Assembly: GCA_013044245.1 (NCBI GenBank)
Contig: JABEVK010000020.1
Span: 2,209-66,208 of the forward strand
Source: Spirochaetales bacterium
Lineage (GTDB): Bacteria; Spirochaetota; Spirochaetia; JABEVK01
Direction: 5' to 3'
Length of the DNA: 64,000 nt
The notes under the pieces were generated by a model, which saw only the letters and a list, made by a program, of their open reading frames with translations, was not told where the DNA came from and did no database searches. Of the stretch, positions 10,528 to 49,797 are shown in pieces. The position numbers were made by a program, and so were the translations under genes. How positions within the stretch are numbered: the stretch's first letter is position 1; the number at the start of each line of letters is the position of its first letter.

Positions 10528-10566
10528 ACTCGTGTTATATTCCGTCGCATGAATGTCAGGAATCAC

Positions 10567-32735: not shown

Positions 32736-33869
32736 ATGAACTTGGAGCTAAGCGCCCTATGCCCTTTTGGTGTTGAAAAGTTAGTGAAGGACGAATTGAA
32801 AGGTCTTGGCTACCACGTCGTGAGTTCCAGTCCGGGAAGAGTGGATTTTCAGGGGCCCTGGGAGGCCATCTACCGTGTTAACCTTGGTTCTCGGACTGCT
32901 GAACGGCTTTTGATCCGACTGGTAAAAGCTCAGGCACAAGATTTTGACCAGTTGTTCGAAGCTACACGCTCGGCGGCTTGGGAAGACTGGTTAACGCCAG
33001 CGGTGACAATTCATATTGAAAAGGTGCGCTTGTATCAGTCCCAGTTAACGAGTGTCCCTGCTGTACAAAGCATGGTGCAAAAGGCGGTCTTTGAAACACT
33101 ATGCCGTCGCTTTCGTTTGACACGACTTCCTCAGAACGGTCCCGTTGTCGCGTTGCGGGTAACCTTAGCCAAAGATCAACTGGAGGTTTTTCTCGATACC
33201 ACGGGAGCCGCTTTGCACAACCGAGGCTATCGGCAGGACACGGGCGAAGCCCCCCTCAAAGAAAATCTAGCGGCGGCGCTGGTGTTGTTTTCGGGGTGGC
33301 GGCGTAAGTACCCGTTGGTTGATCCGTTTTGCGGCTCTGGCACCATTCTTACCGAAGCCCTCTTGTATGCTTATGACCTCCCCCCGGGGCTTAAGCGGTC
33401 GTTTGCTTTTGAACATCTTCGACCTTTTTCGGCCCCTGACTGGGATCATCTTCGAGACGATGCCCGTCAGAAAACCGACCTTTCACATCGGGTGCGAATT
33501 TTTGGTAGCGATAAGGACCCCGTCGTTTTGCGCGCCGCGCGAAAAAATATTCAAGCCCTGGGGTTGGAAGATCACTTGCGTCTTGAGGTGAAAGCCATGG
33601 AAGGTGTCTCAGCGAGATTTTGGGGGATAGAGGAACCGGGATTCGTGGTGACGAACCCCCCATACGGCGAACGCTTAGAAACGGTTGCGGCTGCCCGAGA
33701 CCTCTCGCGGGCTATGGCCAGCTGGGAACGAGATTTTCCTGACTGGTCGATTGGGGTCCTAACTCCGCTTGAGAGTTTGTCCCAGGATATGGGCAGGGAC
33801 CCTTTTGTTGTCCGAGAGCTTTCAAATGGGCCTCTCAGAGTAAAATTCTTTCAGTTTGCCAAAAAATAG
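32736..33869 (+). CDS. THUMP-domain RNA (guanine/adenine-N) methyltransferase (RlmL/Trm14-like)
   Basis: N-terminal THUMP-like region; SAM-binding DPFCGSGTIL; catalytic NPPYGERL motif. Confidence 0.8.
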   Translation: MNLELSALCPFGVEKLVKDELKGLGYHVVSSSPGRVDFQGPWEAIYRVNLGSRTAERLLIRLVKAQAQDFDQLFEATRSAAWEDWLTPAVTIHIEKVRLYQSQLTSVPAVQSMVQKAVFETLCRRFRLTRLPQNGPVVALRVTLAKDQLEVFLDTTGAALHNRGYRQDTGEAPLKENLAAALVLFSGWRRKYPLVDPFCGSGTILTEALLYAYDLPPGLKRSFAFEHLRPFSAPDWDHLRDDARQKTDLSHRVRIFGSDKDPVVLRAARKNIQALGLEDHLRLEVKAMEGVSARFWGIEEPGFVVTNPPYGERLETVAAARDLSRAMASWERDFPDWSIGVLTPLESLSQDMGRDPFVVRELSNGPLRVKFFQFAKK

Positions 33870-36436: not shown

Positions 36437-37396
36437 CTATACCTCGGGGGCAGGGGGGTGAATGGCATCATGATCCTTACGAGTTTCAAGATGCGTGGTC
36501 ACCATACAGCCGGGAAACGATGCGGCGAGCGTTTGTTCGATCCGCGTCGCTGACCGGTGAGCATCACGAAGGCGGGCGTTGTCGTCAAACAGCAGGTGGA
36601 CTTGGATCCAGTACCGGTTGCCTGAATTGCGAAAACGCGCTTCGTGATACCCTGCTTTTTCTGCTTGGCAGGCGGCGGCTAAAACGTCTTCGAGTTTTCG
36701 TTCCTCGTCGGGAGTAACGCGGTCCATGAGACCCGAAAACGATCGTCGCATGAGTTTTCCGCCTTCGGACAAGATATTTAAGGCGGCTAAGACGGCAAAG
36801 ATTGGGTCAAAATAGGCCGGGTCAAACGTCCAGGTGCCCACCTGGATCCAATTTTTGGGAAAAAACAAAACCAACAACAAACCGATTAAAATCCCACCCG
36901 AGGTGACGGAATCCGTCAGCACGTGGCGCCCATTGGCTTCGAGAATCAAATTCTTTTTTCGTTTGCCAAGTTGAATCAGACCTAGGCCCAAAACCCCATT
37001 GACGACAAGAACAACCCCACTGATGATCGTACCGACATCGACATCACTTAAGCGTGGACCTTCAATAAATTTGAGTACAGCTTCGTAAATGATGAACAAG
37101 GCCGCCAGAACAATCATGGCTCCTTCAAACCCGGCGCTGAAAAAGCTGATGCGGTCGTACCCAAACTGATGGGATTTGTCTGACCGTTTAGCTGAAAGTT
37201 TGAGGCTGTAAAAAGCAAAGGTGACGGCGACGACGTGTACCACAGACTCGGCGGCGTCAGACATGATCGCGGCCGAATTGGTGATGACATACGCGGTCAT
37301 CTTGGTAATCAGCATCAAAAACCCGATGGTGAGGCTGAGCAACATGGCTCGCCCCAGGGTTTTATCGGCTGTAGGGGGGGCGGGGGCGAACATCAT
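36437..37396 (-). CDS. Cation diffusion facilitator (CDF) family metal efflux transporter
   Basis: Six TM segments with SDAAESVVHVV...; C-terminal cytoplasmic domain. Start set at ATG 37396 (GAGGA RBS 5 nt upstream). The ORF's first ATG at 37462 would overlap the upstream gene by 100 nt. Confidence 0.8.
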   Translation of the reverse strand: MMFAPAPPTADKTLGRAMLLSLTIGFLMLITKMTAYVITNSAAIMSDAAESVVHVVAVTFAFYSLKLSAKRSDKSHQFGYDRISFFSAGFEGAMIVLAALFIIYEAVLKFIEGPRLSDVDVGTIISGVVLVVNGVLGLGLIQLGKRKKNLILEANGRHVLTDSVTSGGILIGLLLVLFFPKNWIQVGTWTFDPAYFDPIFAVLAALNILSEGGKLMRRSFSGLMDRVTPDEERKLEDVLAAACQAEKAGYHEARFRNSGNRYWIQVHLLFDDNARLRDAHRSATRIEQTLAASFPGCMVTTHLETRKDHDAIHPPAPEV

Positions 37397-40300
37397 GAAA
37401 ATCCTCGCTTTTTTCGAGTGAAAGGTCATAAACCGCCGAAGTTTTGCGGTTTTTGTTTTCAACGTAGTGAATTGTACAAATATAATCTTCTACCACATTA
37501 ATTTTATCCAGAGGAGTCACGACCATCAACTGAAGATTCATCTGTTCAAAGAGTTTCATCGCGAATTTTGAGTTTTCAGGGTCGACCTTGCTAAAAGCTT
37601 CGTCCACCACGGCAAACCGCAGGGAACGCGACCCCGCCGTGCCACGAATGCCAAACTGGTGGGCGATCGCACTTGCCAAAATGGTGTAGGCCAGCTTGGC
37701 CTTTTCACCGCCCGAGAGACTCTGGCTGTCCTGGTAATACTGCCGTTGAGAACCATCTTCGGCGTAACGTTCCACGGCCGCGAACTGAAGCCAATGGCGC
37801 ACGTCGGTGACCTTTTTTCGCCAAAGCTCATCGTCGGACAGGGCTTGGATGATGGCGCGAATGCGATGAAAGGCTTGTTCGAGGTCACTGTCGCCTGCCA
37901 GGGCCTCTTTGAGCATGCGCCGAAAGTCGCGGATTTGTAGGTCGCGGCTGTCCTCGGCCTGAAGTTGAATAAAGGTGGCGGGAAGGCTGTTGTAGGTGAT
38001 AGTTTTTAACGATGAGTTGAGTTCCCGCACGGTTTCTTGAATGGCCCGCAGATGATTTTCTAACGAAGTTCGAAAATCAGCGATGTCTTCGAGCAACCTT
38101 TGGTTGAGCCAATCCTTAAACCGTTTCTGGTACCCGGGGAGGTCTTCACGCCGAATACGGTCGTACCGCTGGCGAAACTCGTCCAAGTTGTCAGCCTTGG
38201 CCATCAATGAGGCCGTCTCGCCTGTCCACTCGGGAAATCGTGCGGCCAACTCAGCCCCCGGGTTGATGTACCGATGCAAGGCGGTTTCTAGCTCGCGTTC
38301 CACCATTTTAAGTTCGTCGATGGTTCGTTTTCGTTCCCCCGCCAGGGTACGACTGACTTCGTCGCGGACTTTGACCAAAGACCCTAGGTCGAGCAAGATG
38401 TTCACTTGTTTGAGCCACGGTTCGAGGCGTCGATGGCCCTCTTCTAAATCAAAACCCGCAAAGTCGAGCAGAATGCGCTGGGCCGCAGACTCTTCCATTT
38501 CATACTCTTCAAGGGTCTTGCGGAGTCGCCCCGACTGAGCGGTCGTTTCATCTTTTTCGCGGGTTTTGTCTTTGAGGGCAACTTTGAGCTCTGCTAAGCG
38601 TTGGTGCAGTTGGTCGGTGCCGCTATCGCCTGTTAGGGCCTTCTTGCGTTCCGCCAGCTTGGCGAGCTCGGCAGTTTCCGTCTCGGTATCCAGTTGGTTC
38701 CAGGCGGTAAAATCGAGAAGCTTTTCTAAAAGGATCCGTCGGTTATCGGTCTGACGGCGTTTGTCTTCTAAAGCGGATTGTTGAGCCTCAAGGCGTGTCA
38801 GTTCAGCTTGAGCGGTTTCGCGGCGCTGAAACAGGGCCTTGCGCTGAACCTCATTCTCCCAACCAAGGACAAAGCACCCTGGGTCTTCCCAACCGGGGGA
38901 TGGGCGACTCCACAGACGCCCATCACGAATCCAGCCGTCTTGGGTAAATCCCCGCTGGGTTCGTGAAAGTTGATCGCGTTCGCAAGCCTGAAAATCGTAG
39001 GTCCGTCGCAACCAGGCGGCTAGACGTTCCCCCCAAGGTGCCAAGCGACGAAACTCTAAAAGGTCCGAGAGTTGGTCCCTCTCTTCCGAGACAAAGAATT
39101 GTTCTTCGGCGGAGTCGCGCAAAACCAGGATTTTTCCGGGGTGTTCATCGACCCAAGTTCGTATGGCGGACTCGTGTTCAGGGTCAACGATCACCGCCAA
39201 AAGGACATCGCCCAAAAGTCGCTCTACCGCTGGCCTCCACGCGGGGTCGAGAACCCGGACCAACGCGGCCGCAAACGGAAGTTTTTCGGGGTCCATGTCG
39301 AGGTCCGCAGCCATCCGGTCGCGCCACTGCCTGCGATCGCGGGGAATCGCATCCGAATGATGACGAAGGCTTTCTAGCTCTTGAGACAGTGCCTCGGCTT
39401 CCTCACTGGCGGCAAGAAGTCGGTTTCGTCCTTCGGCCCAGGCGACGCTGGCGGGAGCCACTTGTTCTTCGAGAGCCGATTTTTGTCGGACGGCTTCTTC
39501 GCGGTGCTCCCAAAAGCCAGGTTCTCCCTGTACCGGGCCAAACCCCAGTGCCTTGGCCAAACTGTCATACTCGTGTCTTAAACGCTCTTTTCCGGCGAGA
39601 ATATCGCGGCGATGGGCCACGTCGCGCTCTAAGGCGTCCAAGAGTCCGCTTTGACTTTTGTCGCGAAGGGCGAACTCCCAATCTCGTTCCTGGCGGCGCA
39701 AATCTTCGAGCTGAAGTTCTAGACTGTCCTTTTGAGCTTCGACGGCCGCCAAACGTACTTGCTCACGGTTTTTGGCTTCGGCGAGAAGTCGTTTTTCTTG
39801 GGCCGCAAAAACGGGAGCTACAGCGTCCCAAGCCTGATCCTGCTCGGCTTTTTGCTGACTGAGTGTTTCCCAGCGCTCGCCGGCCAGCATGGCCGGTTCC
39901 AACAAACGAAGCTGTTCACGAGCCTTTTCAATCTGCTGATGAGCCCCCAAAAGGTCTTCATAGTTCTTTTTGAGTTTGGCGAAGTCTTCTTCCATATCCG
40001 CCGCATCGAGCATATTGTCGCGGATAAACTCGTTCAGGTCGCCTAATACTTTAACACCGACCACATGCGAGAACAAACTAAGGGCTTTGTCGCTTTTTAG
40101 TCCAAACAAGCTTGAAAAGGTTTGCCCATAAAGAGCAAAGGTATCGAAGAATTTCACCGGATGCCGGGCGGTGAGGGCTTTTTTCCAAGCGGGTCCCCCG
40201 TCAAAAGGCAGTAAATCTTCAGAGCAAAGACCGGCGTTGGCCACCAGGTAGAGCCGTTTCAGTGTGCCTGCCGACCACCAACGCAGTTGGGCCAACGTTG

Positions 40301-40688
40301 CTTCTTGTTGAAAGCTCTCATTGGCAAAGCTGGCTAAAAGGAGAGAAAAATCGTCTTTACCGCGTAAGTATTGCGTTTCGCCTGTGGTGCTGTCTTCATC
40401 GCGAAGGGTACCGTAGGCCCCCAGTACATACGAAGTTTCATCCCGTTCCCGTTTTTTGTCCGCCCCCGACGACTGGTTGTAGTGACGTTTGCCTGGAGGA
40501 ACCAGCAGGGTAACTAGGGCATCGACCACGGTGGTCTTACCTGAACCGTTGGCGCCCGTGAGGAGGGAGTTTTTACCGCGAGGGGCCAAGCGGTAAATCT
40601 TGTCGTGAAAGGTGCCCCAGTTATAAATCTCGAGAGTATTCAGATGCCAGCCAGCGCTTTGAACATCTGTTTCAAAGAGAGTAGACAT
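37362..40688 (-). CDS. MukB/MksB/JetC-like SMC-family ATPase (long coiled-coil, N-terminal Walker A head and C-terminal signature/Walker B head)
   Basis: 1108 aa. N-terminus LEIYNWGTFHDKIYRLAPRGKNSLLTGANGSGKTTVVDA (MukB-like NW...GxNGxGKTT). Central region rich in heptad-like E/L/R/K. C-terminus LSGGEKAKLAYTILASAIAHQ...LRFAVVDEAFSKVD. Confidence 0.7.
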   Translation of the reverse strand: MSTLFETDVQSAGWHLNTLEIYNWGTFHDKIYRLAPRGKNSLLTGANGSGKTTVVDALVTLLVPPGKRHYNQSSGADKKRERDETSYVLGAYGTLRDEDSTTGETQYLRGKDDFSLLLASFANESFQQEATLAQLRWWSAGTLKRLYLVANAGLCSEDLLPFDGGPAWKKALTARHPVKFFDTFALYGQTFSSLFGLKSDKALSLFSHVVGVKVLGDLNEFIRDNMLDAADMEEDFAKLKKNYEDLLGAHQQIEKAREQLRLLEPAMLAGERWETLSQQKAEQDQAWDAVAPVFAAQEKRLLAEAKNREQVRLAAVEAQKDSLELQLEDLRRQERDWEFALRDKSQSGLLDALERDVAHRRDILAGKERLRHEYDSLAKALGFGPVQGEPGFWEHREEAVRQKSALEEQVAPASVAWAEGRNRLLAASEEAEALSQELESLRHHSDAIPRDRRQWRDRMAADLDMDPEKLPFAAALVRVLDPAWRPAVERLLGDVLLAVIVDPEHESAIRTWVDEHPGKILVLRDSAEEQFFVSEERDQLSDLLEFRRLAPWGERLAAWLRRTYDFQACERDQLSRTQRGFTQDGWIRDGRLWSRPSPGWEDPGCFVLGWENEVQRKALFQRRETAQAELTRLEAQQSALEDKRRQTDNRRILLEKLLDFTAWNQLDTETETAELAKLAERKKALTGDSGTDQLHQRLAELKVALKDKTREKDETTAQSGRLRKTLEEYEMEESAAQRILLDFAGFDLEEGHRRLEPWLKQVNILLDLGSLVKVRDEVSRTLAGERKRTIDELKMVERELETALHRYINPGAELAARFPEWTGETASLMAKADNLDEFRQRYDRIRREDLPGYQKRFKDWLNQRLLEDIADFRTSLENHLRAIQETVRELNSSLKTITYNSLPATFIQLQAEDSRDLQIRDFRRMLKEALAGDSDLEQAFHRIRAIIQALSDDELWRKKVTDVRHWLQFAAVERYAEDGSQRQYYQDSQSLSGGEKAKLAYTILASAIAHQFGIRGTAGSRSLRFAVVDEAFSKVDPENSKFAMKLFEQMNLQLMVVTPLDKINVVEDYICTIHYVENKNRKTSAVYDLSLEKSEDFHDVRPRPPYSR

Positions 40689-40763
40689 AGCCCCACTCTA
40701 GGGGGAGGCAAGCCCCCTGTCAACGAGGGGGGGCAAACCAAACAGCGGTGTCAACGAAACGAT

Positions 40764-42008
40764 TTAGAGATGACTGCCCAGAGCATCGACAATATGGAGT
40801 TTCCCTGCCCTTCGTGCGGGGAGCCATGCCCCCAAAACAGCAATCAATGCTGACCCTGCGATCGCAAGCACAAACGGCAACGGTTGATAGACAGGCTTCA
40901 AAAGGCTGGTAAACGGAATGGGCATATTTTCGGGGAGGAGTTTTCGTACATCGATGCCTCCAGCGAAGGCGATTCCCAGGGCCAAAGCCGCCAGCACCCC
41001 AACAATACCACCGAGAGCTCCCAGCAAGAGACCTTCGGTCAAAAAAAGCCGCCGGAGGTTTTTTCGCTTCATGCCCAAAGCACGAAGGGTACCGATTTCA
41101 CGAAAGCGTTCCTGAACCGACATTGACAAGGAATTGAGTATCCCTACCGCCACCAACAGAACCAAAATACCCAACATGAGGGTAAGTATTCGGATCCGAC
41201 TGTCGATGGAACTGACTACCGTTTGAGCAAACTCTTTCCATTCGTAGACCTTGAGAGGTTGACCAGCTAAGGTGGCATTTCTTTTTAGGGCGCGAATGGT
41301 TTCGGCAGTGTCGGCTGCCGTGTCATTCCCGTGAAAGCGAAGAACCACGCGGGTCGCGAAATCGGGGCGTAACGAGAGGGCTTCCCGAGCCTTGTCGAGG
41401 GTGGTGAAAATAATATGATGGTCAAAGAGGGCAAACCCCAACGAAAAGATGCCCGAGATGGTCCCCGAAACAAGGTTGCGAACGCCATAGCGATCCAGCG
41501 CGGTCAAAAAAACCTGCTGTCCCACGTGCAGACCCAAAGTGGCGGCAAGACCGCTGCCGACCACGATGTCATTGGGGCCTTTCATCCAGGTACCAGCAGT
41601 GAGGTTGCGGGCAATGGTGGTGAGTTTTGGTTCCGCTCGGGGGTCAACTCCTCGAACCTGTACTGGAACTGACGTGACTCCATTGCTGATTCCTGCCGCG
41701 TAGTCGATGCGAGCTCCTACAGCCTCCAGACCGGGGAGGGTGTGAGCAAAAGTTTCGACAGCCTTGGTGTCGGTGATGCCCAAATCCAGCGGAAGACGAA
41801 CACTTTCGGCCTCGTAGCCTCGGTTGAGTATCTGAACATCCGCCGTGTCGATATCGCGTTGGGTTTGGTAGACGGTCTGTTCCATGCCGATGATCCAGGC
41901 TTGCATACTGATCAGGACCATCACTCCCAAGGCAATGGCAATGACGTTTAAAAACGTTCGCCGGGGGTTACGGAAAACATTGCGTAGTGCGACCTTGAAG
42001 ATTTCCAT
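40764..42008 (-). CDS. ABC transporter permease, FtsX/MacB/LolC-E family
   Basis: 414 aa; N-terminal TM, large periplasmic domain, C-terminal 3-TM FtsX domain (LRALGMKRKNLRRLFLTEGLLLGALGGIVG). Confidence 0.8.
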   Translation of the reverse strand: MEIFKVALRNVFRNPRRTFLNVIAIALGVMVLISMQAWIIGMEQTVYQTQRDIDTADVQILNRGYEAESVRLPLDLGITDTKAVETFAHTLPGLEAVGARIDYAAGISNGVTSVPVQVRGVDPRAEPKLTTIARNLTAGTWMKGPNDIVVGSGLAATLGLHVGQQVFLTALDRYGVRNLVSGTISGIFSLGFALFDHHIIFTTLDKAREALSLRPDFATRVVLRFHGNDTAADTAETIRALKRNATLAGQPLKVYEWKEFAQTVVSSIDSRIRILTLMLGILVLLVAVGILNSLSMSVQERFREIGTLRALGMKRKNLRRLFLTEGLLLGALGGIVGVLAALALGIAFAGGIDVRKLLPENMPIPFTSLLKPVYQPLPFVLAIAGSALIAVLGAWLPARRAGKLHIVDALGSHL

Positions 42009-42071
42009 ACCAGCTCCTTTATTCTCATAACCTAAACTTTTGTCATGCCAAGTCTTTTATAGGTACGTTAG

Positions 42072-43301
42072 CTATAGGTACGTTAGCGCATCGATGACGC
42101 TCTTTTTGGCCGCGACTCTGGCGGCGTAAAAGGTTGACGCCAAGGCAATGACAATTCCCGCTGCCCCATTAGCCACAATATCAGTCACCTTAAGAACGGG
42201 GTAAATTCGGCTGGCAAAACCCAAGTATTCGGTGGCTGACCCCACATCGACCCCAACCTTGGCCAAAATGGCAACGGCGCTGGCGCCAAAAATCAAGCCG
42301 CAGAGCGCACCCAGAGCCCCTAACAGGCCTCCCTCGGCGAGCAACATCGCCAACAACTGCCGCCGTTTTAGGCCGATTGCCCGCAGGGTGCCATGTTCTC
42401 GCATTCGCTCGAAGATGGACATTAGGATCGAGTTGGCAATGACAGAGGTGGCCACGATGATAAAAAAGATGCGGATAATGGCCGAAACAACATCTAAAAG
42501 CTTGAGGATGGTAAGGAGTGACCCAAAGGTTTCTTGCCAGACGTCGATTTCGTAGTGTTGTGGCGGAAACTCTGAGAGCAAACTTTGGCGAACCGCATAG
42601 CTATCGGCAGGATTTTTTAAAACCAGCCGAATTTCGCGAGTCATCCCTTGTGCGTCCAAAAGCGACTCGGCAGTCGCCGTGGACACGAAAAACAAGCTGT
42701 CATCGGTTAAATCGCTTCCTGAACGGTACAAACCCGTGATTTTTAGCTCTTGGTACCAGGGATTATTGTCTCGGTCGGTGGTGAGTACCATCACCGAACC
42801 GCCATACTTGACCCCCAACAGCTTGGCCGCACTCTCGGACAAAAGAATGCCCTCACCTTGGGGCAGAAAGCTACCTTGGGTGATTCCTTGGCGGATGTTA
42901 GAATAAAAAGCCGTGGAGGGCGAAACTCCTTGCCCCATCATGCCGAGATTTTTGGCATCCGCTTTGCTGTCCACTGGTACCGGTTGAACCACCAGGGCAG
43001 GAAAGCTCAAGATTTTTTCTTTGATCAGCACCCGAGGGTCCTGAATCTGGGCCAAAAGCTTGTTGGCGTGGGGCAAAAGGTACTTGAGGTCCTGGGGGTT
43101 CACAGCATTATCAGAACCAGCGGCCTTGATTTCAATATGGCCAGCCGTGGGTAAAATGCTGTCCAAAAAGGTTGCCGTGAGCCCACTGAGGACACCGCTG
43201 ATGAGAGTGAGGACCCCCACGGCGATGAGCACAGCAAAAAAAACCACTAAGGACCGTTTACTGTGCTTAAAAATATTGAGCCAGGCCAGTTTAAAGAACA
43301 T
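42072..43301 (-). CDS. ABC transporter permease, FtsX/MacB/LolC-E family (second copy)
   Basis: 409 aa; same architecture (LRAIGLKRRQLLAMLLAEGGLLGALGALCG); GGGGAGA RBS. Confidence 0.8.
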   Translation of the reverse strand: MFFKLAWLNIFKHSKRSLVVFFAVLIAVGVLTLISGVLSGLTATFLDSILPTAGHIEIKAAGSDNAVNPQDLKYLLPHANKLLAQIQDPRVLIKEKILSFPALVVQPVPVDSKADAKNLGMMGQGVSPSTAFYSNIRQGITQGSFLPQGEGILLSESAAKLLGVKYGGSVMVLTTDRDNNPWYQELKITGLYRSGSDLTDDSLFFVSTATAESLLDAQGMTREIRLVLKNPADSYAVRQSLLSEFPPQHYEIDVWQETFGSLLTILKLLDVVSAIIRIFFIIVATSVIANSILMSIFERMREHGTLRAIGLKRRQLLAMLLAEGGLLGALGALCGLIFGASAVAILAKVGVDVGSATEYLGFASRIYPVLKVTDIVANGAAGIVIALASTFYAARVAAKKSVIDALTYL

Positions 43302-43303
43302 GG

Positions 43304-43987
43304 TTAGTTCTCCCCGACGATCAGTCCATCTTTGAGACGAATGATCCGTGTCGCATACTTTTCAATCAAGGCGTTGTGAGTCGAAAAGATGAAGCTGACT
43401 TTTTCTTCTTCATTGAGGCGTTTCATCACCTCCATAATTATGGTTGAGGTCACTGAGTCGAGGTTGGCCGTCGGTTCGTCCGCAATGACCAGGCGCGGAC
43501 GGTTGACGAGGGCCCGGGCGATTGCTACCCGTTGCCGTTGTCCCCCAGAAAGCTCATCGGGTTTGTGTTTAACAAACTCTCCCAAGCCCACCACATCAAC
43601 CAAGTGGTCGACAATCTTTTGCCGTTCCTTGGAGCCTACTTTGCGCATCAAAAGGGGAAACTCAATGTTCTCGCGGATATTGAGGACGGCGATCAAGTTA
43701 AACGATTGAAAGATGAAGCCGATTTCGTTAAGCCGGATTTCGGCCTCCTGGTCATCATTCAGGGTGGCAAGATCGCGGCCCTGAAAGTGCACACTACCAC
43801 TGGTTGGCTTGTCGATACAGCCAAGAATATTCAGTAACGTTGTTTTGCCACAGCCGGAGGGGCCCACAATCGACAAAAAATCACCGGTGTCAATGGTGAA
43901 GCTGACGCCCTTAAGGGCGGGAATAATGGTTTTTCCTAGCTGGTAGTTCTTGGTAACCTCGCGGATCGTAAGGACGGGTTCGGCCAT
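43304..43987 (-). CDS. ABC transporter ATP-binding protein, LolD/MacB type
   Basis: Walker A GPSGCGKTT; signature LSGGQRQRVAIARAL; Walker B LVIADEPTANLD. Start set at ATG 43987 (AAGGAG RBS 6 nt upstream); the ORF's GTG at 44011 is an alternative. Confidence 0.88.
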   Translation of the reverse strand: MAEPVLTIREVTKNYQLGKTIIPALKGVSFTIDTGDFLSIVGPSGCGKTTLLNILGCIDKPTSGSVHFQGRDLATLNDDQEAEIRLNEIGFIFQSFNLIAVLNIRENIEFPLLMRKVGSKERQKIVDHLVDVVGLGEFVKHKPDELSGGQRQRVAIARALVNRPRLVIADEPTANLDSVTSTIIMEVMKRLNEEEKVSFIFSTHNALIEKYATRIIRLKDGLIVGEN

Positions 43988-44011
43988 GGATGACTCCTTA
44001 ATTTTGAGCAC

Positions 44012-45223
44012 TTAAAAGTGATAACGGGTTTGAAAGATGACGACATAACGCGCGGTCTGCGTATTTGGAGGGGGCAGCGGCACGCTGTTCCAGGCATCGG
44101 TAACGGCCCCGGTTGCCGCCTGAAAGCTCCCCACCAAGTCAAGACTATCCCAGGGAGTAAGGGTGAGGCTGGCCTGGTAGAGGGCGCTCCCGTCTTGAAG
44201 GTCCACCAAACAAAAGCCTGCCAAATCAAACGTGTCGCTCGAATTAGCATCCAGGTGAAAGATAGCATTGTACCGATCACGAAGCGTAGGTCGAATTGTC
44301 GACACGCTGGTTCCAGAAAGCTCGTTAGCTTGGGCCACTTGGCTGGACGTCCATCCTTGCCCCCAGTACAAGGTTTCCCCTTGAACCGTGAGGTCGATGT
44401 CGCCTAGCGACCAGGTGTAACGGGCCCCTACCGAGCCGGATGGGGCGGGTTGGGTCCAAGCCGTGGGGGCGGTCCAGGTACTGACAAGGCCCGACGCTGG
44501 TACGAGGCCTTGAGGCAGAAACTCCACAGCACCTTCGGCCGTAAGAATGACGCCGCTTACGTCGTACGAAACCCCTAGTGCGGGGTTGAACGTTTCGTTA
44601 GGACTGAAACACAGGCTTGCGGTTCCTTGAAAGCGGCCCGTTTGAAGGCTGAGTTGCGTTGCCCCGGCCAGGTTATTGGCAGAAAATACCGGGAGCGGTA
44701 CTGCACTCCCCGGGGTGTTCCCCAGCTCACGTTCCAGTGAGATTCCGCCTGTCCACCCCAACCAGGCGTTCGGCGACCAGGCCCAGGTTGCTCCTCGAAA
44801 ACCGCTTTTTTGGTCAAAGAAGTTAATCGCGGGGTTGATCGAGTCTCCCACGGTGAAGGTTTGTCCCACACCGAGGTTGAGTCGTTTTTTACCGAAAGTC
44901 AAATCCAGTCCCGAAAAAGGGGTGAGCCTTACGTAAGCTTCGGCGATATCGAAGAGGGCTTGGCCTGCCTGAAGGGAGTTCCCCAGCGGCAAATAGGCCG
45001 AACCGTCAAGGATGAAGGCGGCTGCCCCTTGCGAAAAGCTGAGTCGACCGTTGAGGTCCAACAGCCACTGCGTTGTGGCCCCCGAGTTCCAATCGGGGGC
45101 CGACCCAAGAAGAATTTGCCCCGCATCGGCGACATAATTAAAACCGGGTTCGTCTTGAGCAGAAAGAGGAAGCCCCGCCAGTCCCAGAAAAAGAACACCC
45201 CAAAGGGGGGCCAGCTTCTTCAT
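44012..45223 (-). CDS. Outer-membrane beta-barrel protein (hypothetical)
   Basis: Signal peptide MKKLAPLWGVLFLGLAGLPLSAQ; alternating amphipathic beta-strand pattern; C-terminus ...VVIFQTRYHF. Confidence 0.55.
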   Translation of the reverse strand: MKKLAPLWGVLFLGLAGLPLSAQDEPGFNYVADAGQILLGSAPDWNSGATTQWLLDLNGRLSFSQGAAAFILDGSAYLPLGNSLQAGQALFDIAEAYVRLTPFSGLDLTFGKKRLNLGVGQTFTVGDSINPAINFFDQKSGFRGATWAWSPNAWLGWTGGISLERELGNTPGSAVPLPVFSANNLAGATQLSLQTGRFQGTASLCFSPNETFNPALGVSYDVSGVILTAEGAVEFLPQGLVPASGLVSTWTAPTAWTQPAPSGSVGARYTWSLGDIDLTVQGETLYWGQGWTSSQVAQANELSGTSVSTIRPTLRDRYNAIFHLDANSSDTFDLAGFCLVDLQDGSALYQASLTLTPWDSLDLVGSFQAATGAVTDAWNSVPLPPPNTQTARYVVIFQTRYHF

Positions 45224-45226
45224 GGG

Positions 45227-46015
45227 CTACCTCGTTAAAGCGTTCAGATTGAACAGCTCGTCGGGAATATCCTGCCGAACTTTCATACTGTGGATTACTA
45301 ACGTCGACGTCGTGCCGGTTTGATCCAGCGACACCATCTGCATTTCGGTAGCTCGTAAGCGGCCCGCCATCTCTTTATAATGACTGAGGACCATTTTTCG
45401 GTACAGGAGGCCCGACTTGGCATAGTAATCGAACTTGAGCGGCAAAAGATCCCCTTGACGGACCCACATTTCAATCCATCCGTAGGCGGCTTCCGGCCTT
45501 TTGGCAATGGCTCGCAACTGCCAAACTTTGACTTTGCCAAACTCGGGGTGATCAATCACTTCAGCTTTTTCAAAAACCCCACGGTAGTCGTCTAGAAAGG
45601 AGGTGCGTGAAACATCCGAGTTAGAAAAGGCCGAACCCTGAAATGAATCCCGGGGGGCCAGACGAAGGGGACGGTTAGAACCAGAGTGGGGGTTATAAAG
45701 CCACAGGCTCCCGGTTTCTGTTAACATCCGTGTGCCACGGGAACGAGGGGGCGACAGGATTTGTAAAAAACTGCCTAGGCCTTTTTTATGCGTAACTTCC
45801 ATGCTCATCACTTTGGGATCTTCACCTTGGGTGACGGTTGTCAGCGTTACCTGCATAGTGAAATCTTCAGGAAAACGGATTTCGTCAATCCGGGCTAAAA
45901 GGGTGTTGCCGTCAGGCACCGACTGGGCTACGGCAAAAGGGGCGCCCAGGCACAAGAGTATCAAAAGTACTACCAGCCGGGGCGGGCGTTGAAAATCACG
46001 AATGAGCAGATTCAT
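45227..46015 (-). CDS. LolA-like outer-membrane lipoprotein-sorting/carrier domain protein
   Basis: Signal MNLLIRDFQRPPRLVVLLILLCLGAPFAVAQ; periplasmic beta-barrel-like ~230 aa, of the kind commonly encoded beside MacB-type ABC systems. AAGGAG RBS before ATG 46015. Confidence 0.55.
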   Translation of the reverse strand: MNLLIRDFQRPPRLVVLLILLCLGAPFAVAQSVPDGNTLLARIDEIRFPEDFTMQVTLTTVTQGEDPKVMSMEVTHKKGLGSFLQILSPPRSRGTRMLTETGSLWLYNPHSGSNRPLRLAPRDSFQGSAFSNSDVSRTSFLDDYRGVFEKAEVIDHPEFGKVKVWQLRAIAKRPEAAYGWIEMWVRQGDLLPLKFDYYAKSGLLYRKMVLSHYKEMAGRLRATEMQMVSLDQTGTTSTLVIHSMKVRQDIPDELFNLNALTR

Positions 46016-46169
46016 GAAATCTCCTTTAATTTCGAAACCACTTCTCTGAGAACGTATAAAGTTACATTGTATCACAAATCAGAGATGGGGTAACTTGAAA
46101 AGTTTGGCAAGGGGGACCAAGATAGAACCAAACACAGAGGGGTAAACCTTTGTGTTCAAGGAGGCCTGT

Positions 46170-46646
46170 GTGAAAATTCCACGCGCGACCAAAAAGATCC
46201 TGGCTCTTCAGTCCCAGGTGATTGAAGATTTTACCCAACAGATTCCGGTTGAACTCTGGGATGTCCGTCGGGGGCCTGAAGTCTGGACGCTTAGGGAGCA
46301 CCTGTACCATTTGGCCGATGTCCAAAAACTGCTTCTGGGACGGATCAAACTGATTCTCGCCGAAGAGCGGCCGGTGATTCAGCCGTATTTTCCTGATAAC
46401 GAGCCGGCTTTGGGTGAGCTTTTTCCCTCGATTGGCGCCGCCCTTACGACTTACCGACGCGTACGGGACAAGCAATTGAAGCTTTTTGCTAAAGCGCGTA
46501 AATCAGACTGGAAAAAGCAAGCCTTGCATGGTGAGTATCGACTGTATTCCTTGAGCATCATTGCCCGGCACTTAGTGATTCACGACGACTGGCACCTGTA
46601 CCGCATGGAAGAAATTTGGCTAACGAAGGACGAATACTTTCATTAA
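46170..46646 (+). CDS. DinB/YfiT-like (DinB_2) metal-dependent four-helix-bundle protein
   Basis: HLYHLADVQKLLLGRI ... HLVIHDDWHLYRMEEI His-rich helix motifs. AAGGAGG RBS 5 nt before GTG 46170. Confidence 0.6.
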   Translation: MKIPRATKKILALQSQVIEDFTQQIPVELWDVRRGPEVWTLREHLYHLADVQKLLLGRIKLILAEERPVIQPYFPDNEPALGELFPSIGAALTTYRRVRDKQLKLFAKARKSDWKKQALHGEYRLYSLSIIARHLVIHDDWHLYRMEEIWLTKDEYFH

Positions 46647-46688
46647 AAAATATACGACTGTAATCAGTAACGGTCAAAGGGGAAAAAA

Positions 46689-47081
46689 TTGAGTGAACCG
46701 GTTCTTGTCGGCCTGTTATTTGCCGATCGTGTCATTATTGAAAACAACGGAAAACGAGGGATCATTGGCACGTTCAATGTCTTTCATTCGCAAAGCTTTC
46801 CCGCCCTGTTCCCGCCATGGTTTATCTACGCGGCGGTCACCAACTTAACGGGTAAGCATAGCTTTGCGTTGACGCTTGTGCACGAGGAGTCTCAACAAGT
46901 CGTTGTCCCCTTTAACGGCGACTTTGAATCGCCTGAAGCGGAGGTTGTCGTTGAGCTAACACCAGCCCTCATGAACGTGACCTTTCCCCGCCCTGGAACC
47001 TATTTGCTCAGCTTTAGCGTGGACGGTGAACTATTAGGAACCCGAATTTTGTACGTTCGTCAGGCGCCACCCGGTCGATAA
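46689..47081 (+). CDS. Hypothetical protein (130 aa, beta-rich)
   Basis: TTG start preceded by AAAGGGGA. Convergent with, and overlapping by 22 nt, the 3' end of the mksE-like gene. Confidence 0.4.
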   Translation: MSEPVLVGLLFADRVIIENNGKRGIIGTFNVFHSQSFPALFPPWFIYAAVTNLTGKHSFALTLVHEESQQVVVPFNGDFESPEAEVVVELTPALMNVTFPRPGTYLLSFSVDGELLGTRILYVRQAPPGR

Positions 47082-47656
47082 GTCGCTAAACGAGTCTTGA
47101 GGTCATCGAGCTGCGCCGCACCCAGCTTGACCTTGAGGATGCGCATGACCTGGTAGACCTTGCGACCCTGGTCGCCTGGGTCAGGCGAAGCTGTCTCGCG
47201 TAAGAAGCCCAGCTTAACCATGTGGCCCAGCGATCGTTCAAACTGTTTCCAAGCGCGAGCTTCATCAAATCGGCCCTCTGTATAGGGAGCTAGGCGGGCT
47301 TGCAGGTCACGAGCTGTTATAAATAGGTCACGGCTGTCGGTATTGGTGAGGTCAAACTCTTCTAGGGCGTCACGCAGGATTACCGCTAAAACGGTGGCGT
47401 CATAGCCCAAGGGGGCCCGTTTCACTAACCGTGGCAGAGTATCTTCTTCGCCCCCAGGCTGAGTCAAATACGCCAGGCCCTCTTCTGTTACCAGCATCAG
47501 TCTCAACCCGATACGAGCAAACCACTCTTGGACAGCTCCAGTGTTATCCAGCAAGAGGGCCCACAGCTTGATATCATCGTCGTAAAGGGGACCTTGAAGC
47601 AGTTTAAGAATGACAGAGGCGTACGAGAGCACCGGAAGCTCAGTTTCATCAGACAT
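47060..47656 (-). CDS. MksE/JetB-like (DUF4194-type) condensin accessory subunit
   Basis: ~198 aa. YASVILKLLQGPLYDDD.KLWALLLDNTGAVQEWFARIGLRLMLVTEEGLAYL matches the conserved MukE/MksE-like core. ATG 47656 overlaps the upstream stop (ATGTCTGA). Confidence 0.6.
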   Translation of the reverse strand: MSDETELPVLSYASVILKLLQGPLYDDDIKLWALLLDNTGAVQEWFARIGLRLMLVTEEGLAYLTQPGGEEDTLPRLVKRAPLGYDATVLAVILRDALEEFDLTNTDSRDLFITARDLQARLAPYTEGRFDEARAWKQFERSLGHMVKLGFLRETASPDPGDQGRKVYQVMRILKVKLGAAQLDDLKTRLATYRPGGA

Positions 47657-49091
47657 GGCCAAACTCCACTCGGGGGGATCGAAGCCGAAAGTGCTCGTCC
47701 ACCGGCAAAAAGGTTGTCTCGTCAGGATTAACGTGTCCTGTGGGCGAAAATGACGCAATTTCTAAATACGCAAGAACCTCAGATAGTCCTTGTTCGGGGG
47801 GCCAGCGCGTAAGAATTTCGTCTAGGGTCGCATGGCCTTGGCGAGTACTCTCGGCCACGCGACGGCGAAGTTTAAGAAGGTCAATACTAAACTGACCGGT
47901 GAGGACGGCACGACTTTCAGCCGGTAGAGTCTGGCTTTCTCGCTGGGGGCGACGGTCCTTCCAACGGCCTTCGGGAGGTTCGCTCCAGGGGCGGTCGGCT
48001 ACCATGCTCAACTCAGCATCTCCTTCGACTTCCCAAATAAAGTCAGCGGGGGGCGAGGCATGGTGACGGGCAAACTCTTCTTTCAACGAGGCCAAAAGCG
48101 TCCGAAGCCGTTCATGATGATGAATGTCTTGTTCCGATAAAAGTTTATTCAGCTTTTCGGCGAGCAACCTGTTGCCGGCGATCACTTTGCGACCGGCTAA
48201 ATGCAGATGCGTTTTGAGATGACGTAAAACTTCGTCATGAGGACTACGATTTTGCGCATCGAGCAAGGCAAAAAGTTCGCCTAAGCGCTCGGGGAGTGAC
48301 TCCTGTTCGCCTTCACGAATCAGGTGTTCCCAAAAGGCATAAAAACTGCGGCCCTGAGGACTCTGGCGAAGTTCTTCGGCGGCGTCCAAGGTATAACCAA
48401 GAATATCGCCGCGACTAAAACCTTCTTGCGCTTGTTGTTCATAAATCCGTCGGACCAAAGCCTGAAAGTTTTGCTCAACCTGTTTAAAATCTCCCAACAG
48501 GGCCCGTGACAAGCGGTTGAGGGCGCTAACACGTTCTTCGAGCTGAACATCCGTCCACTGTGGGGGCTCAAGACCGTTCTTGAGCTTTTGAATTTCTAAG
48601 TCCAAGGCGGCTTTCTTTTTTTCGAGACGCCGGATGCGGGACTGCGGGTCAGGGTCAAGCTTCAAGACCAAGTCATCTAACCGCTGAAGGATTTCATCAA
48701 ACCGGCTTTCGGTCCCGACTAGAGTGTCGTCGAGGGTTTCGATCCATTGGAACACCCGTTGTGTCCATGGGGTGGCTTCAACCCAAACTTGGCCATTTTC
48801 GTCGGCAAATCGCCTCAGGTAACGAATCTCGTCGCGGCACCAATGGTCCAAGAGTAGTTTGGCACGGCGGTGACGATCACCCTGCGCCAAGGGAATTTCG
48901 TCAGCTTCGAGACCGCATTCTTCAAAAAAGCTCGCTAGACGCCCTTCTAAAAGGTCGCTTTCGACCATAGGAATAGGGTCTTCATAGAACATTTTTCGAA
49001 AAAAGAGCAAAAGAAAGAGCACGTGGGGGTTACGCAAGAGGCGCAAAGAAGGGTTGTCCGTCAAGCTTCGGCGTAAACGCTCGGCATCCAT
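47649..49091 (-). CDS. MksF/JetA-like (DUF3375-type) kleisin-like subunit
   Basis: 480 aa. N-terminal NPSLRLLRNPHVLFLLLFFRKMF...LDHWCRDEIRYLRRFADENGQVWVEATPWTQRVFQWIETL follows the pattern I recall for JetA/MksF N-terminal domains; coiled-coil middle. 8-nt overlap with the mksE-like gene. Confidence 0.6.
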   Translation of the reverse strand: MDAERLRRSLTDNPSLRLLRNPHVLFLLLFFRKMFYEDPIPMVESDLLEGRLASFFEECGLEADEIPLAQGDRHRRAKLLLDHWCRDEIRYLRRFADENGQVWVEATPWTQRVFQWIETLDDTLVGTESRFDEILQRLDDLVLKLDPDPQSRIRRLEKKKAALDLEIQKLKNGLEPPQWTDVQLEERVSALNRLSRALLGDFKQVEQNFQALVRRIYEQQAQEGFSRGDILGYTLDAAEELRQSPQGRSFYAFWEHLIREGEQESLPERLGELFALLDAQNRSPHDEVLRHLKTHLHLAGRKVIAGNRLLAEKLNKLLSEQDIHHHERLRTLLASLKEEFARHHASPPADFIWEVEGDAELSMVADRPWSEPPEGRWKDRRPQRESQTLPAESRAVLTGQFSIDLLKLRRRVAESTRQGHATLDEILTRWPPEQGLSEVLAYLEIASFSPTGHVNPDETTFLPVDEHFRLRSPRVEFGHV

Positions 49092-49097
49092 GGCTCT

Positions 49098-49126
49098 ATT
49101 ATTCCGGGAATCTGCTTGGCACGCAA
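49098..49126 (-). promoter_or_regulatory. Sigma70-like promoter TTGCGT-N17-AATAAT only 6 nt upstream of the mksF-like ATG (leaderless-type arrangement)
   Basis: Minus-strand reading of 49126..49098. ATG at 49091; no SD possible. Confidence 0.35.
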
Positions 49127-49194: not shown

Positions 49195-49797
49195 ATGCAC
49201 TTGCGATATAACGCCCCAGTCACCTTCAGTTTCGCCCTCATCTGCACCGTGGTGCTACTCATTGACCAATACGTGGCGCCCGGCTTTGTCGCCACCTATT
49301 TGCGTGCCCCCGGTGCCGACTTTCAAGCCAGTCAACCGCAAAACTGGTTTGCGTTGATCTTTTATGTTTTTGGTCACGAAAACTGGACACACTTATGGAA
49401 CAATCTGTTGTTTTTGATTTTGCTGGGTCCCATTCTCGAAGAAAAATATGCCCCAAAAGCAATGTTGTTTATGATGACCGCGACAACGTTGGTAGCGGGA
49501 ATTTTTAACGTGTTGCTACGCCAGCCGCCGCTGGTAGGGTCTTCGGCAATCGTCTTTATGATGATCATGCTGGTGAGCTTTGCCCGAACCAAGCAAGGCG
49601 AAATTCCGGTTTCGTTTCTGTTAGTCTTTATCCTGTTTATGCTGGCTGAAATTACCCGAGGAGCCGCTCCAGGGAGTCATGACGTGTCCAGTGTTGCCCA
49701 CGTCGTCGGGGGTGTGTGTGGAACAATCTTTGGCTTTTTAAAGATGGCAGCCGGTCAGGGGGGAGCTCCTGCGCCAGGAGGGCCCCCTAAAAGTTGA
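49195..49797 (+). CDS. Rhomboid-family intramembrane serine protease
   Basis: 6 TM; GHENWTHLWNNLLFLILLGPILE; GSSAIVFMM (catalytic Ser region); AHVVGGVCG (catalytic His region). Confidence 0.7.
   Translation: MHLRYNAPVTFSFALICTVVLLIDQYVAPGFVATYLRAPGADFQASQPQNWFALIFYVFGHENWTHLWNNLLFLILLGPILEEKYAPKAMLFMMTATTLVAGIFNVLLRQPPLVGSSAIVFMMIMLVSFARTKQGEIPVSFLLVFILFMLAEITRGAAPGSHDVSSVAHVVGGVCGTIFGFLKMAAGQGGAPAPGGPPKS

What the first reader, a model, noticed from the sequence alone, without database searches (positions are those of the whole stretch)
37362..49091. Split MksF-MksE ... MksB (JetA-JetB ... JetC-like) SMC complex with no JetD/MksG, interrupted by a 6.3 kb LolA/MacB-type ABC operon
Three genes carry the hallmarks of a MukBEF/MksBEF/Wadjet-type SMC complex. 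The 480-aa protein has a JetA/MksF-like N-terminal pattern. The ~198-aa protein has a MukE/MksE-like core and its start overlaps the upstream stop (ATGTCTGA), which suggests translational coupling. The 1108-aa ATPase has a MukB-like NW...GANGSGKTT head and a C-terminal LSGGEKAK...VVDEAF head. In known systems these genes are contiguous as F-E-B(-G). Here the ATPase gene lies 6.4 kb downstream on the same strand, after two convergent plus-strand genes (DinB-like and a 130-aa ORF) and a five-gene LolA-like/OMP/ABC operon. It is followed only by a CDF transporter. No Toprim/DUF2220-like JetD/MksG candidate is seen anywhere in the window. This could be a chromosomal condensin-type MksBEF that was split by a rearrangement, or a Wadjet-like defence locus that has lost its nuclease and been invaded by another operon. 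Either way the organisation is atypical, and the ATPase gene may be driven by read-through from the ABC operon (75-nt gap containing a GGGGG-N7-CCCCC hairpin).
Basis: partly seen in the sequence, partly recalled or inferred. Interest (0 to 1): 0.75.

Follow-up and report, generated by a model that had tools for sequence, protein, structure and literature searches.

The report
Split Wadjet SMC genes lacking nuclease
A small lineage of uncultured spirochaetes keeps the three DNA-motor genes of a Wadjet/MksBEF-type SMC complex intact and under strong selection, but has no nuclease gene nearby and has the genes split into two separately promoted units. This makes it a possible example of a plasmid-defence machine turned into a housekeeping chromosome organiser, though that function has not been tested.

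Summary
On the minus strand, 47649-49091 is JetA (DUF3375), 47060-47656 is JetB (DUF4194, with an ATGTCTGA overlap onto jetA), and 37362-40688 is a full-length type-I JetC. Seven unrelated genes (6.4 kb) separate jetB from jetC. No JetD is detectable anywhere in the 64 kb.

The arrangement is not a recent accident. Two other Spirochaetales MAGs have the same layout. A relative with about 50% JetC identity has jetAB and jetC split by a different 5.4 kb block. In relatives with about 70% identity, neither visible 10 kb flank carries the partner genes. None of these loci has JetD.

This lineage is monophyletic and sister to a Saprospiraceae JetABCD clade. Across 121 loci the median jetB-jetC gap is 20 nt, and only this lineage exceeds 1.5 kb. 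dN/dS is 0.04-0.06, the same as the housekeeping neighbours.

jetA and jetC each have a conserved promoter-like site whose -10 element ends 6-7 nt before the ATG. This points to separate, leaderless transcription rather than read-through from the ABC operon.

My best reading is a nuclease-less derivative of type-I Wadjet, inherited vertically and working as a MksBEF-like loop extruder. A jetD gene elsewhere in the genome cannot be excluded.

The parts
47649..49091 (-). jetA (kleisin; DUF3375), 480 aa
   Evidence: Pfam DUF3375 5e-77. PADLOC JetA1 1.3e-95. Closest solved structures are type-I JetA chains 8q72, 8as8 and 8dk1. dN/dS is 0.042 against L002.
47060..47656 (-). jetB (KITE; DUF4194/MksE-like), 198 aa from the ATG that overlaps the jetA stop (ATGTCTGA)
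   Evidence: Pfam DUF4194 2.5e-31 and MksE 9e-9. PADLOC JetB1 2.5e-44. The overlap is read directly, and L070 has the same 8-nt overlap. dN/dS is 0.062.
37362..40688 (-). jetC (SMC-like ATPase), 1108 aa, with all ATPase motifs intact
   Evidence: PADLOC JetC1 1.1e-271 over the full length. AAA_29 and SbcC_Walker_B. Motifs are visible in the translation. Closest solved structures are JetC chains 9qxt, 8as8 and 8dk2. dN/dS is 0.048.
40695..40723 (-). promoter-like site of jetC: TTGACA-17-TAGAGT, with the -10 ending 6 nt before the ATG (implies a leaderless mRNA)
   Evidence: Found by the scan. Conserved in L001, L002 and L069, although L069 has a different, divergent upstream gene. L070 and L071 have TATAAT 6-7 nt before the ATG.
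49098..49126 (-). promoter-like site of jetA: TTGCGT-17-AATAAT, with the -10 ending 6 nt before the ATG
   Evidence: Sequence read. Conserved in L001, L002 and L072. Function is inferred, not shown.
46689..47081 (+). DUF6941 gene, convergent with jetB and overlapping its 3' end by 22 nt. Part of the intervening block, not a Jet subunit.
   Evidence: Pfam DUF6941 2e-20. It lies next to jetB in L001, L002 and L072. The family is spirochaete-wide and also occurs without any jet genes. The predicted fold is a beta-sandwich, not a nuclease.
46152..46646 (+). DinB_2-family gene (intervening block)
   Evidence: Pfam DinB_2 4.5e-13.
40764..46075 (-). Five-gene LolA-like / 403-aa unknown / ABC ATPase / two FtsX-MacB permeases operon lying between jetB and jetC
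   Evidence: Pfam LolA_like, ABC_tran, FtsX and MacB_PCD. NCBIfam LolC/E-like, below cut-off. The same genes lie between jetB and jetC in L001 and L002. A similar cluster lies near DUF6941 in L140, a spirochaete locus with no jet genes.
36437..37345 (-). CDF cation-efflux gene whose ATG lies 16 nt after the jetC stop, so it is probably co-transcribed with jetC
   Evidence: Pfam Cation_efflux and ZT_dimer. Junction sequence read. An orthologous CDF follows jetC in L001, L002, L003 and L069.
49195..49797 (+). Rhomboid gene, divergent from jetA (synteny anchor)
   Evidence: Pfam Rhomboid. A Rhomboid gene lies in the same position in L072 and L074.
32736..33869 (+). RlmL-like methyltransferase gene, antisense and downstream of jetC (synteny anchor)
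   Evidence: Pfam UPF0020, RlmL_1st and THUMP. The same family lies antisense downstream of jetC in L070 and L071.

Best explanation
This is a nuclease-less derivative of a type-I Wadjet (JetABCD) system that has become an ordinary, vertically inherited chromosomal gene set in a small Spirochaetales lineage.

JetA (kleisin), JetB (KITE) and JetC (SMC ATPase) still assemble into one ATP-driven DNA loop-extruding complex. Without JetD the complex cannot cut DNA. It therefore most likely organises or segregates DNA in the way MksBEF does in Pseudomonas aeruginosa, rather than restricting plasmids by cleavage.

The genes are expressed as two independent units, jetA-jetB (translationally coupled) and jetC-cdf. 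Each unit starts from its own promoter with a leaderless start codon. This layout resembles the unlinked smc and scpAB genes of housekeeping condensins.

Shown here: gene identities, intact motifs, the conserved split, absence of JetD near any member of the lineage, purifying selection, and the conserved promoter-like sites. Inferred: complex formation, loop extrusion, a chromosomal rather than anti-plasmid role, and leaderless transcription.
For: Identity.

The split is conserved. L001 and L002 share the window's layout. L070 has jetA-jetB, then a 5.4 kb block of different genes, then jetC. In the relatives at about 70% identity, L069 shows jetC with no jetAB in the 10 kb upstream, and L072 shows jetAB with no jetC in the 10 kb downstream. 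Their jetA and jetC genes lie on different contigs in three assemblies.

The three genes co-diverge, as expected of a matched set. JetA/JetB/JetC identities are about 95/92/96% to L002, 67/65/70% to L072 and L069, 44/44/50% to L070, and 36/40/39% to Saprospiraceae.

The lineage is monophyletic and sister to a JetABCD clade, with no unusually long branch.

No JetD was found in the window, L001-L003 or L069-L074. By contrast, 68 of 77 loci with enough downstream sequence have it.

dN/dS is 0.042, 0.062 and 0.048 at dS 0.5-0.7, the same range as the neighbouring genes (0.03-0.08).

The neighbourhood is housekeeping: Rhomboid, dCTP deaminase, MsrAB, tRNA-Val, Dus, RlmL-like and DnaJ. Composition is ordinary and no flanking repeats were found.

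Promoter-like sites are conserved.

Against: Only 64 kb of this genome, and at most 10 kb flanks of the relatives, could be searched. In a lineage that already tolerates unlinked jet genes, jetD could also be unlinked.

The test of the JetD-docking loop was inconclusive. The residue equivalent to E. coli JetC F919 lies in a Gly/Asp-rich loop that varies within this lineage. However, E. coli has an equally short loop, and some lineage members keep a Val or Leu there.

There is no functional, expression or localisation evidence. Whether these genomes also carry Smc-ScpAB is unknown. The lineage is small and known only from MAGs and metagenome contigs.
Confidence: 0.55

Rival explanations
1. It is still a complete Wadjet plasmid-restriction system. 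jetD exists but lies elsewhere in the genome, unlinked like jetC, and the four proteins still cut small circular DNA.
For: The lineage demonstrably tolerates unlinked subunit genes. All JetABC motifs are intact and under selection. Only part of each genome could be inspected.
Against: JetD lies within about 5 kb of jetC in 68 of 77 informative loci. It is missing near jetC and near jetAB in every member of this lineage: six jetC loci and three jetAB loci, including 37 kb downstream of jetC and 15 kb upstream of jetA in the window. The loop that docks JetD in E. coli is not conserved within the lineage, although that test is inconclusive.
Confidence: 0.2
2. It is a nuclease-independent defence or silencing complex. 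JetABC alone recognises small circular or foreign DNA by complete extrusion. It then blocks replication, segregation or expression of that DNA without cutting it, or recruits an unrelated host nuclease.
For: JetABC is the sensor part of Wadjet and recognises plasmids without JetD (PMC10586767; bioRxiv 10.1101/2023.11.03.565488). The intact, selected genes fit any ATP-dependent role.
Against: No defence genes or mobile-element genes were found nearby. The stable chromosomal position, vertical inheritance and neighbour-like evolutionary rate are not typical of defence islands. The conserved neighbours (DUF6941, a beta-sandwich; CDF) are not nuclease-like.
Confidence: 0.17
3. These are decaying remnants of a disrupted Wadjet operon with no remaining function.
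For: The operon is broken and the effector gene is missing.
Against: All three ORFs are full length in every member of the lineage where they can be seen. dN/dS is 0.04-0.06 at unsaturated dS. Motifs are intact. Promoter-like sites are conserved. The genes have been retained across divergence down to about 50% identity.
Confidence: 0.03

Closest known systems
Type-I Wadjet / JetABCD (E. coli GF4-3, PDB 8as8/8bfn/8q72; P. aeruginosa PA14, PDB 8dk1-3; C. glutamicum MksBEFG)
   Same: JetA, JetB and JetC belong to the same families, and the best PADLOC models are JetA1, JetB1 and JetC1. The closest solved structures are these JetA and JetC chains. Sizes, motifs and the jetA-jetB coupling match.
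   Different: No JetD nuclease gene lies in the locus. jetC is separated from jetAB by 6.4 kb of unrelated genes. The position is chromosomal, stable and vertically inherited. jetA and jetC have separate promoter-like sites.
MksBEF of Pseudomonas aeruginosa (nuclease-less condensin, mksFEB operon)
   Same: It is a three-subunit MukBEF-like complex without MksG/JetD. [quoted passage not shown] The Pfam MksE model hits JetB.
   Different: mksFEB is a contiguous operon, whereas the genes here are split. The lineage here nests beside a Saprospiraceae JetABCD clade, so the JetD loss may well be a separate event. The relationship to the Pseudomonas MksBEF sequences was not tested, because no sequence was available in the tools.
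Saprospiraceae / Bacteroidota JetABCD loci (L004-L013, L042, L046, L048, L051)
   Same: This is the sister clade, at about 36-40% identity for all three proteins. Some members also carry extra genes between jetB and jetC (0.4-1.4 kb) or between jetC and jetD (0.6-5 kb).
   Different: All members with enough downstream sequence keep JetD. Their inserts are single same-strand genes rather than a multi-operon block.
Smc-ScpAB and MukBEF housekeeping condensins
   Same: Same SMC + kleisin + KITE architecture. Having the SMC gene unlinked from a kleisin-KITE gene pair resembles the usual separate smc and scpAB loci (established knowledge).
   Different: No sequence-level membership. Pfam MukB N-terminal scores 20.9 bits, below its cut-off of 23, and SMC_N scores 36.9, below its cut-off of 40.

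Membership tests
Wadjet type I (JetABCD) | JetA kleisin (DUF3375) | tested here: met
   Pfam 5e-77 and PADLOC JetA1 1.3e-95.
Wadjet type I (JetABCD) | JetB KITE (DUF4194) | tested here: met
   Pfam 2.5e-31 and PADLOC JetB1 2.5e-44.
Wadjet type I (JetABCD) | JetC SMC-like ATPase with intact Walker A, signature and Walker B motifs | tested here: met
   PADLOC JetC1 1.1e-271 over the full length. Motifs are visible.
Wadjet type I (JetABCD) | JetD nuclease (DUF3322 + JetD_C/Toprim) encoded with JetABC | tested here: not met
   No hit at E<=10 in six frames of the 64 kb window, or in L001-L003 and L069-L074. hhalign probability is below 1% for the two unannotated JetD-sized ORFs. The rest of the genome could not be searched.
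Wadjet type I (JetABCD) | Contiguous jetA-B-C-D operon | tested here: not met
   The jetB-jetC gap is 6.4 kb and holds seven genes. The median gap in 121 loci is 20 nt.
Wadjet type I (JetABCD) | Restriction of small circular plasmids by DNA cleavage | not testable with these tools
   Needs an experiment.
MksBEF-type nuclease-less condensin | MksF/E/B-like subunits present with no MksG/JetD | tested here: met
   The absence of JetD is shown only for the sequence available.
MksBEF-type nuclease-less condensin | Contiguous mksFEB operon | tested here: not met
MksBEF-type nuclease-less condensin | Common descent with Pseudomonas MksBEF | not tested
   No Pseudomonas MksBEF sequence was available. 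The tree places the lineage beside a JetABCD clade, which leaves an independent origin possible.
MksBEF-type nuclease-less condensin | Role in chromosome folding or segregation | not testable with these tools
   Needs Hi-C, microscopy or genetics.
MukBEF | MukB N-terminal domain, MukE and MukF families | tested here: not met
   Pfam MukB scores 20.9 bits, below its cut-off of 23. No MukE or MukF hits.

The most novel reading that the evidence does not exclude
This may be an independent conversion of a type-I Wadjet plasmid-defence machine into a housekeeping chromosome-organising SMC complex in spirochaetes. The lineage would be caught at a stage where the nuclease is gone, the SMC gene has separated from the kleisin-KITE pair (as with smc and scpAB), and each unit has its own promoter. 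That would make it a natural replicate of the proposed route from Wadjet to MksBEF and MukBEF.
Probability: 0.35. Interest if true: 0.65.

Novelty: new variant of a known kind. Interest (0 to 1): 0.45.

Why it matters
Reviews propose that MksBEF and MukBEF descend from Wadjet through loss of JetD (PMC10586767). Examples that show intermediate steps are scarce. This lineage offers a phylogenetically clear case: it has a JetD-bearing sister clade, intact and selected JetABC genes, a stable chromosomal position, and dispersed subunit genes.

It could be used in two ways:
- to ask which sequence changes accompany loss of the nuclease, for example at the JetD-docking loop;
- to test whether a type-I JetABC motor alone organises chromosomes.

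There is also a practical point. As far as I know, annotation tools that require four adjacent genes will miss such systems. The interest is moderate, because nuclease-less MksBEF is already known and these organisms are uncultured.

Tried and rejected
1. DUF6941 as a JetD substitute or Jet partner. It is conserved next to jetB, but the family is spirochaete-wide and occurs without jet genes. Its confident model (pLDDT 96) is a beta-sandwich resembling the Wzt carbohydrate-binding domain and UNC119/RhoGDI, not a nuclease.

2. The GGGGG-N7-CCCCC hairpin as a terminator or attenuator. It has no T-tract, the fold z-score is -0.95, and it is not conserved in L069.

3. A recent mobile-element insertion. 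No meaningful flanking repeats, no transposase or integrase genes, and no compositional shift were found.

4. The JetC residue equivalent to E. coli F919 as a marker of JetD loss. The loop is variable and Gly-rich in this lineage, but E. coli has an equally short loop, so the result is inconclusive.

5. Extending the contig beyond the window by looking up edge genes. This returned only short Logan contigs.

6. The metagenome scan for more members of the lineage. It found only distant relatives at 40% identity or less.

7. The two JetD-sized ORFs without Pfam hits (10549-11763 and 30645-31793). They are not JetD.

8. Petrushenko 2011 (PMC3179180). The paper is not held.
Full report
**What is there**

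- On the minus strand, 47649-49091 encodes a 480-aa DUF3375 protein (Pfam 5e-77; PADLOC JetA1 1.3e-95).
- 47060-47758 encodes a DUF4194/MksE-like protein (2.5e-31; JetB1 2.5e-44).
- 37362-40688 encodes an 1108-aa ATPase that matches a PADLOC JetC1 model end to end (1.1e-271), together with AAA_29 and SbcC_Walker_B.
- Pfam MukB N-terminal and SMC_N hits are below their cut-offs.
- The closest solved structures are the type-I JetC and JetA chains of E. coli GF4-3 and P. aeruginosa PA14.
- JetC has Walker A GANGSGKTT, signature LSGGEK and Walker B VVDEAF.
- The likely jetB start is the ATG at 47656, inside ATGTCTGA, which overlaps the jetA stop. L070 has the same 8-nt overlap.

Seven genes lie between jetB and jetC:
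- DUF6941 and DinB_2 on the plus strand;
- LolA_like, a 403-aa protein with no Pfam hit, an ABC ATPase and two FtsX/MacB permeases on the minus strand.

A CDF transporter gene starts 16 nt after the jetC stop.

**No JetD**

I built a JetD HMM from 26 JetD proteins found directly downstream of jetC in related loci. Four of these were checked against Pfam and matched DUF3322 + JetD_C. The HMM finds nothing at E<=10 in any frame of the 64 kb window. The two JetD-sized ORFs that lack Pfam hits score below 1% probability against a JetD profile.

**Relatives**

A scan of one genome per species gave 68 loci. The protein database and contig look-ups added intermediates.
- Two Spirochaetales MAGs, L002 (96% JetC identity) and L001 (89%), have exactly the window's layout, including the CDF gene after jetC.
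- L003 and L069 (67-70%) have jetC-CDF. In L069 the 10 kb upstream is a divergent TonB-receptor/ExbBD cluster with no jetAB.
- L072 carries the matching jetA-jetB (67% and 65%). These are followed by DUF6941 and unrelated genes, with no jetC in the next 10 kb.
- For this species, jetA and jetC lie on different contigs in three assemblies.
- L070 (50% JetC, 44% JetA and JetB) has jetA-jetB, then 5.4 kb of entirely different genes (Band_7, Metallophos and others), then jetC followed by GGDEF/EAL genes.
- None of these loci has a JetD hit.

In a JetC tree this lineage is monophyletic. It is sister to a Saprospiraceae JetABCD clade (about 39% identity) and does not sit on an unusually long branch. 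JetA, JetB and JetC diverge in step across all comparisons, so they remain a matched set.

**How unusual**

The metagenome scan added 61 more loci. Across 121 loci that show both jetB and jetC, the median gap is 20 nt and the 95th percentile is 964 nt. Only the window, L001, L002 and L070 exceed 1.5 kb.

JetD is present in 68 of 77 loci with at least 1.5 kb downstream of a complete jetC. Six of the nine exceptions are this lineage.

The sister clade already shows loosening. Some members carry single extra genes between jetB and jetC or between jetC and jetD.

**Functional state**

Against L002, where dS is 0.5-0.7 and therefore unsaturated, dN/dS is 0.042 for jetA, 0.062 for jetB and 0.048 for jetC. 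The neighbouring genes fall in the same range, 0.03-0.08. The genes are therefore maintained by selection and are not remnants.

The neighbourhood is housekeeping:
- Rhomboid, a dCTP-deaminase-like gene, MsrAB, tRNA-Val and Dus lie on the jetA side.
- CDF, a GH94 gene and an RlmL-like methyltransferase lie on the jetC side.
- DnaJ and aconitase-family genes lie further out.

Rhomboid is divergent from jetA in L072 and L074 as well. The RlmL-like gene lies antisense downstream of jetC in L070 and L071 as well. Base composition is flat across the region and there are no meaningful flanking repeats. All of this points to an old event and vertical inheritance.

**Expression signals**

The 75-nt gap before jetC contains TTGACA-17-TAGAGT, with the -10 element ending 6 nt before the ATG.
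- The two hexamers, their spacing and their distance to the ATG are conserved in L001, L002 and L069. In L069 the -10 reads TACAGT, the rest of the intergenic region does not align, and the upstream gene is divergent.
- L070 and L071 have TATAAT 6-7 nt before the ATG.
- jetA has TTGCGT-17-AATAAT with 6 nt to its ATG, and this is conserved in L001, L002 and L072.
- This geometry implies leaderless transcripts. About 7-9 of 52 ORFs in the window show a similar pattern, so it looks like a normal start type for this organism.
It has no T-tract, the region folds no better than shuffled sequence (z = -0.95), and it is not conserved in L069.

Read-through from the ABC operon is not excluded, but it is not needed. 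These inferences come from sequence alone.

**Interpretation**

The lineage descends from a type-I JetABCD system, has no nuclease gene nearby, and has dispersed subunit genes. [quoted passage not shown]

The present case works, most likely, in the same way: as a JetABC loop extruder without a cutting subunit. The layout, a kleisin-KITE gene pair plus an unlinked SMC gene, resembles that of smc and scpAB (established knowledge). I put this reading at about 0.55.

The main rival is that jetD exists elsewhere in the genome. I could not test this, because only the window and 10 kb flanks were accessible.

One published marker for JetD docking is E. coli JetC F919, which inserts into the JetD aCAP pocket (bioRxiv 10.1101/2023.11.03.565488). 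It maps to a loop that is Gly/Asp-rich and variable in this lineage. In the sister clade the same loop is well conserved (PDPAKLIQG), and in most other JetD-bearing systems it reads TEGxLTGS. However, E. coli has an equally short loop, and some lineage members keep a Val or Leu there. I therefore count this test as inconclusive.

**Side checks**

DUF6941 is conserved next to jetB, but it is a spirochaete-wide family that also occurs without jet genes. Its predicted fold is a beta-sandwich. It is not a Jet partner or a nuclease.

**Verdict**

Its nature is a new variant of a known kind: a nuclease-less MksBEF-like derivative of Wadjet. The interest is moderate.

Noticed in passing
window 46689-47081 (+); L140 6001-6390; L141 6001-6399: DUF6941 is a highly conserved spirochaete-wide family. 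Members are 50-98% identical to the window protein and include Leptospira and Brucepastera, and dN/dS is about 0.02. The AlphaFold model is very confident (pLDDT 96) and is an all-beta sandwich. It weakly resembles the Wzt O-antigen carbohydrate-binding domain and the UNC119/RhoGDI lipid-binding folds. The gene overlaps the 3' end of jetB by 22 nt, in convergent orientation.
   Followed up: yes
window 36437-37345 (-) with 37362-40688 (-); L001, L002, L003, L069: A CDF cation-efflux gene follows jetC by 16-48 nt in every member of the lineage with at least 67% JetC identity, so it is probably co-transcribed. This is an odd but conserved pairing of an SMC ATPase with a metal transporter. It is not seen in L070 or L071.
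   Followed up: partly
L010 8907-9953; L046 9076-9933; L004, L011, L046 and L051 between jetC and jetD: The Saprospiraceae sister clade of JetABCD often carries one extra same-strand gene between jetB and jetC (348 aa in L010, 285 aa in L046). It can also carry genes between jetC and jetD, for example a CcbP-like protein or an HTH-S24 repressor, spanning up to 5 kb in L051. The inserts differ between loci.
   Followed up: partly
window, e.g. starts at 10549, 12249 (-), 14506, 21179 (-), 53784 (-), 40688 (-), 49091 (-): Roughly 7-9 of 52 large ORFs have a -10-like hexamer 6-8 nt upstream of the start codon and no Shine-Dalgarno motif. Leaderless mRNAs therefore look common in this spirochaete.
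   Followed up: partly
L059 (Bacteroides sp. MAG), L110, L062: Other exceptions lie outside the spirochaete lineage. L059 and L110 have contiguous jetABC with no JetD in 5-10 kb downstream. In L062 the JetC match stops at residue 314 and is followed by a 514-aa ORF, which may indicate a disrupted gene.
   Followed up: no
L074 2116-2681: In a relative with 58% JetA identity, a MazE/PemK toxin-antitoxin pair sits between the conserved Rhomboid gene and jetA.
   Followed up: no
window 30645-31793 (-), 10549-11763 (+), 56051-57823 (-), 44012-45223 (-): Four sizeable ORFs (382, 404, 590 and 403 aa) have no Pfam match. In L140 the counterpart of the 403-aa protein has a faint DUF1302 hit, so the window protein may be an outer-membrane protein.
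   Followed up: partly
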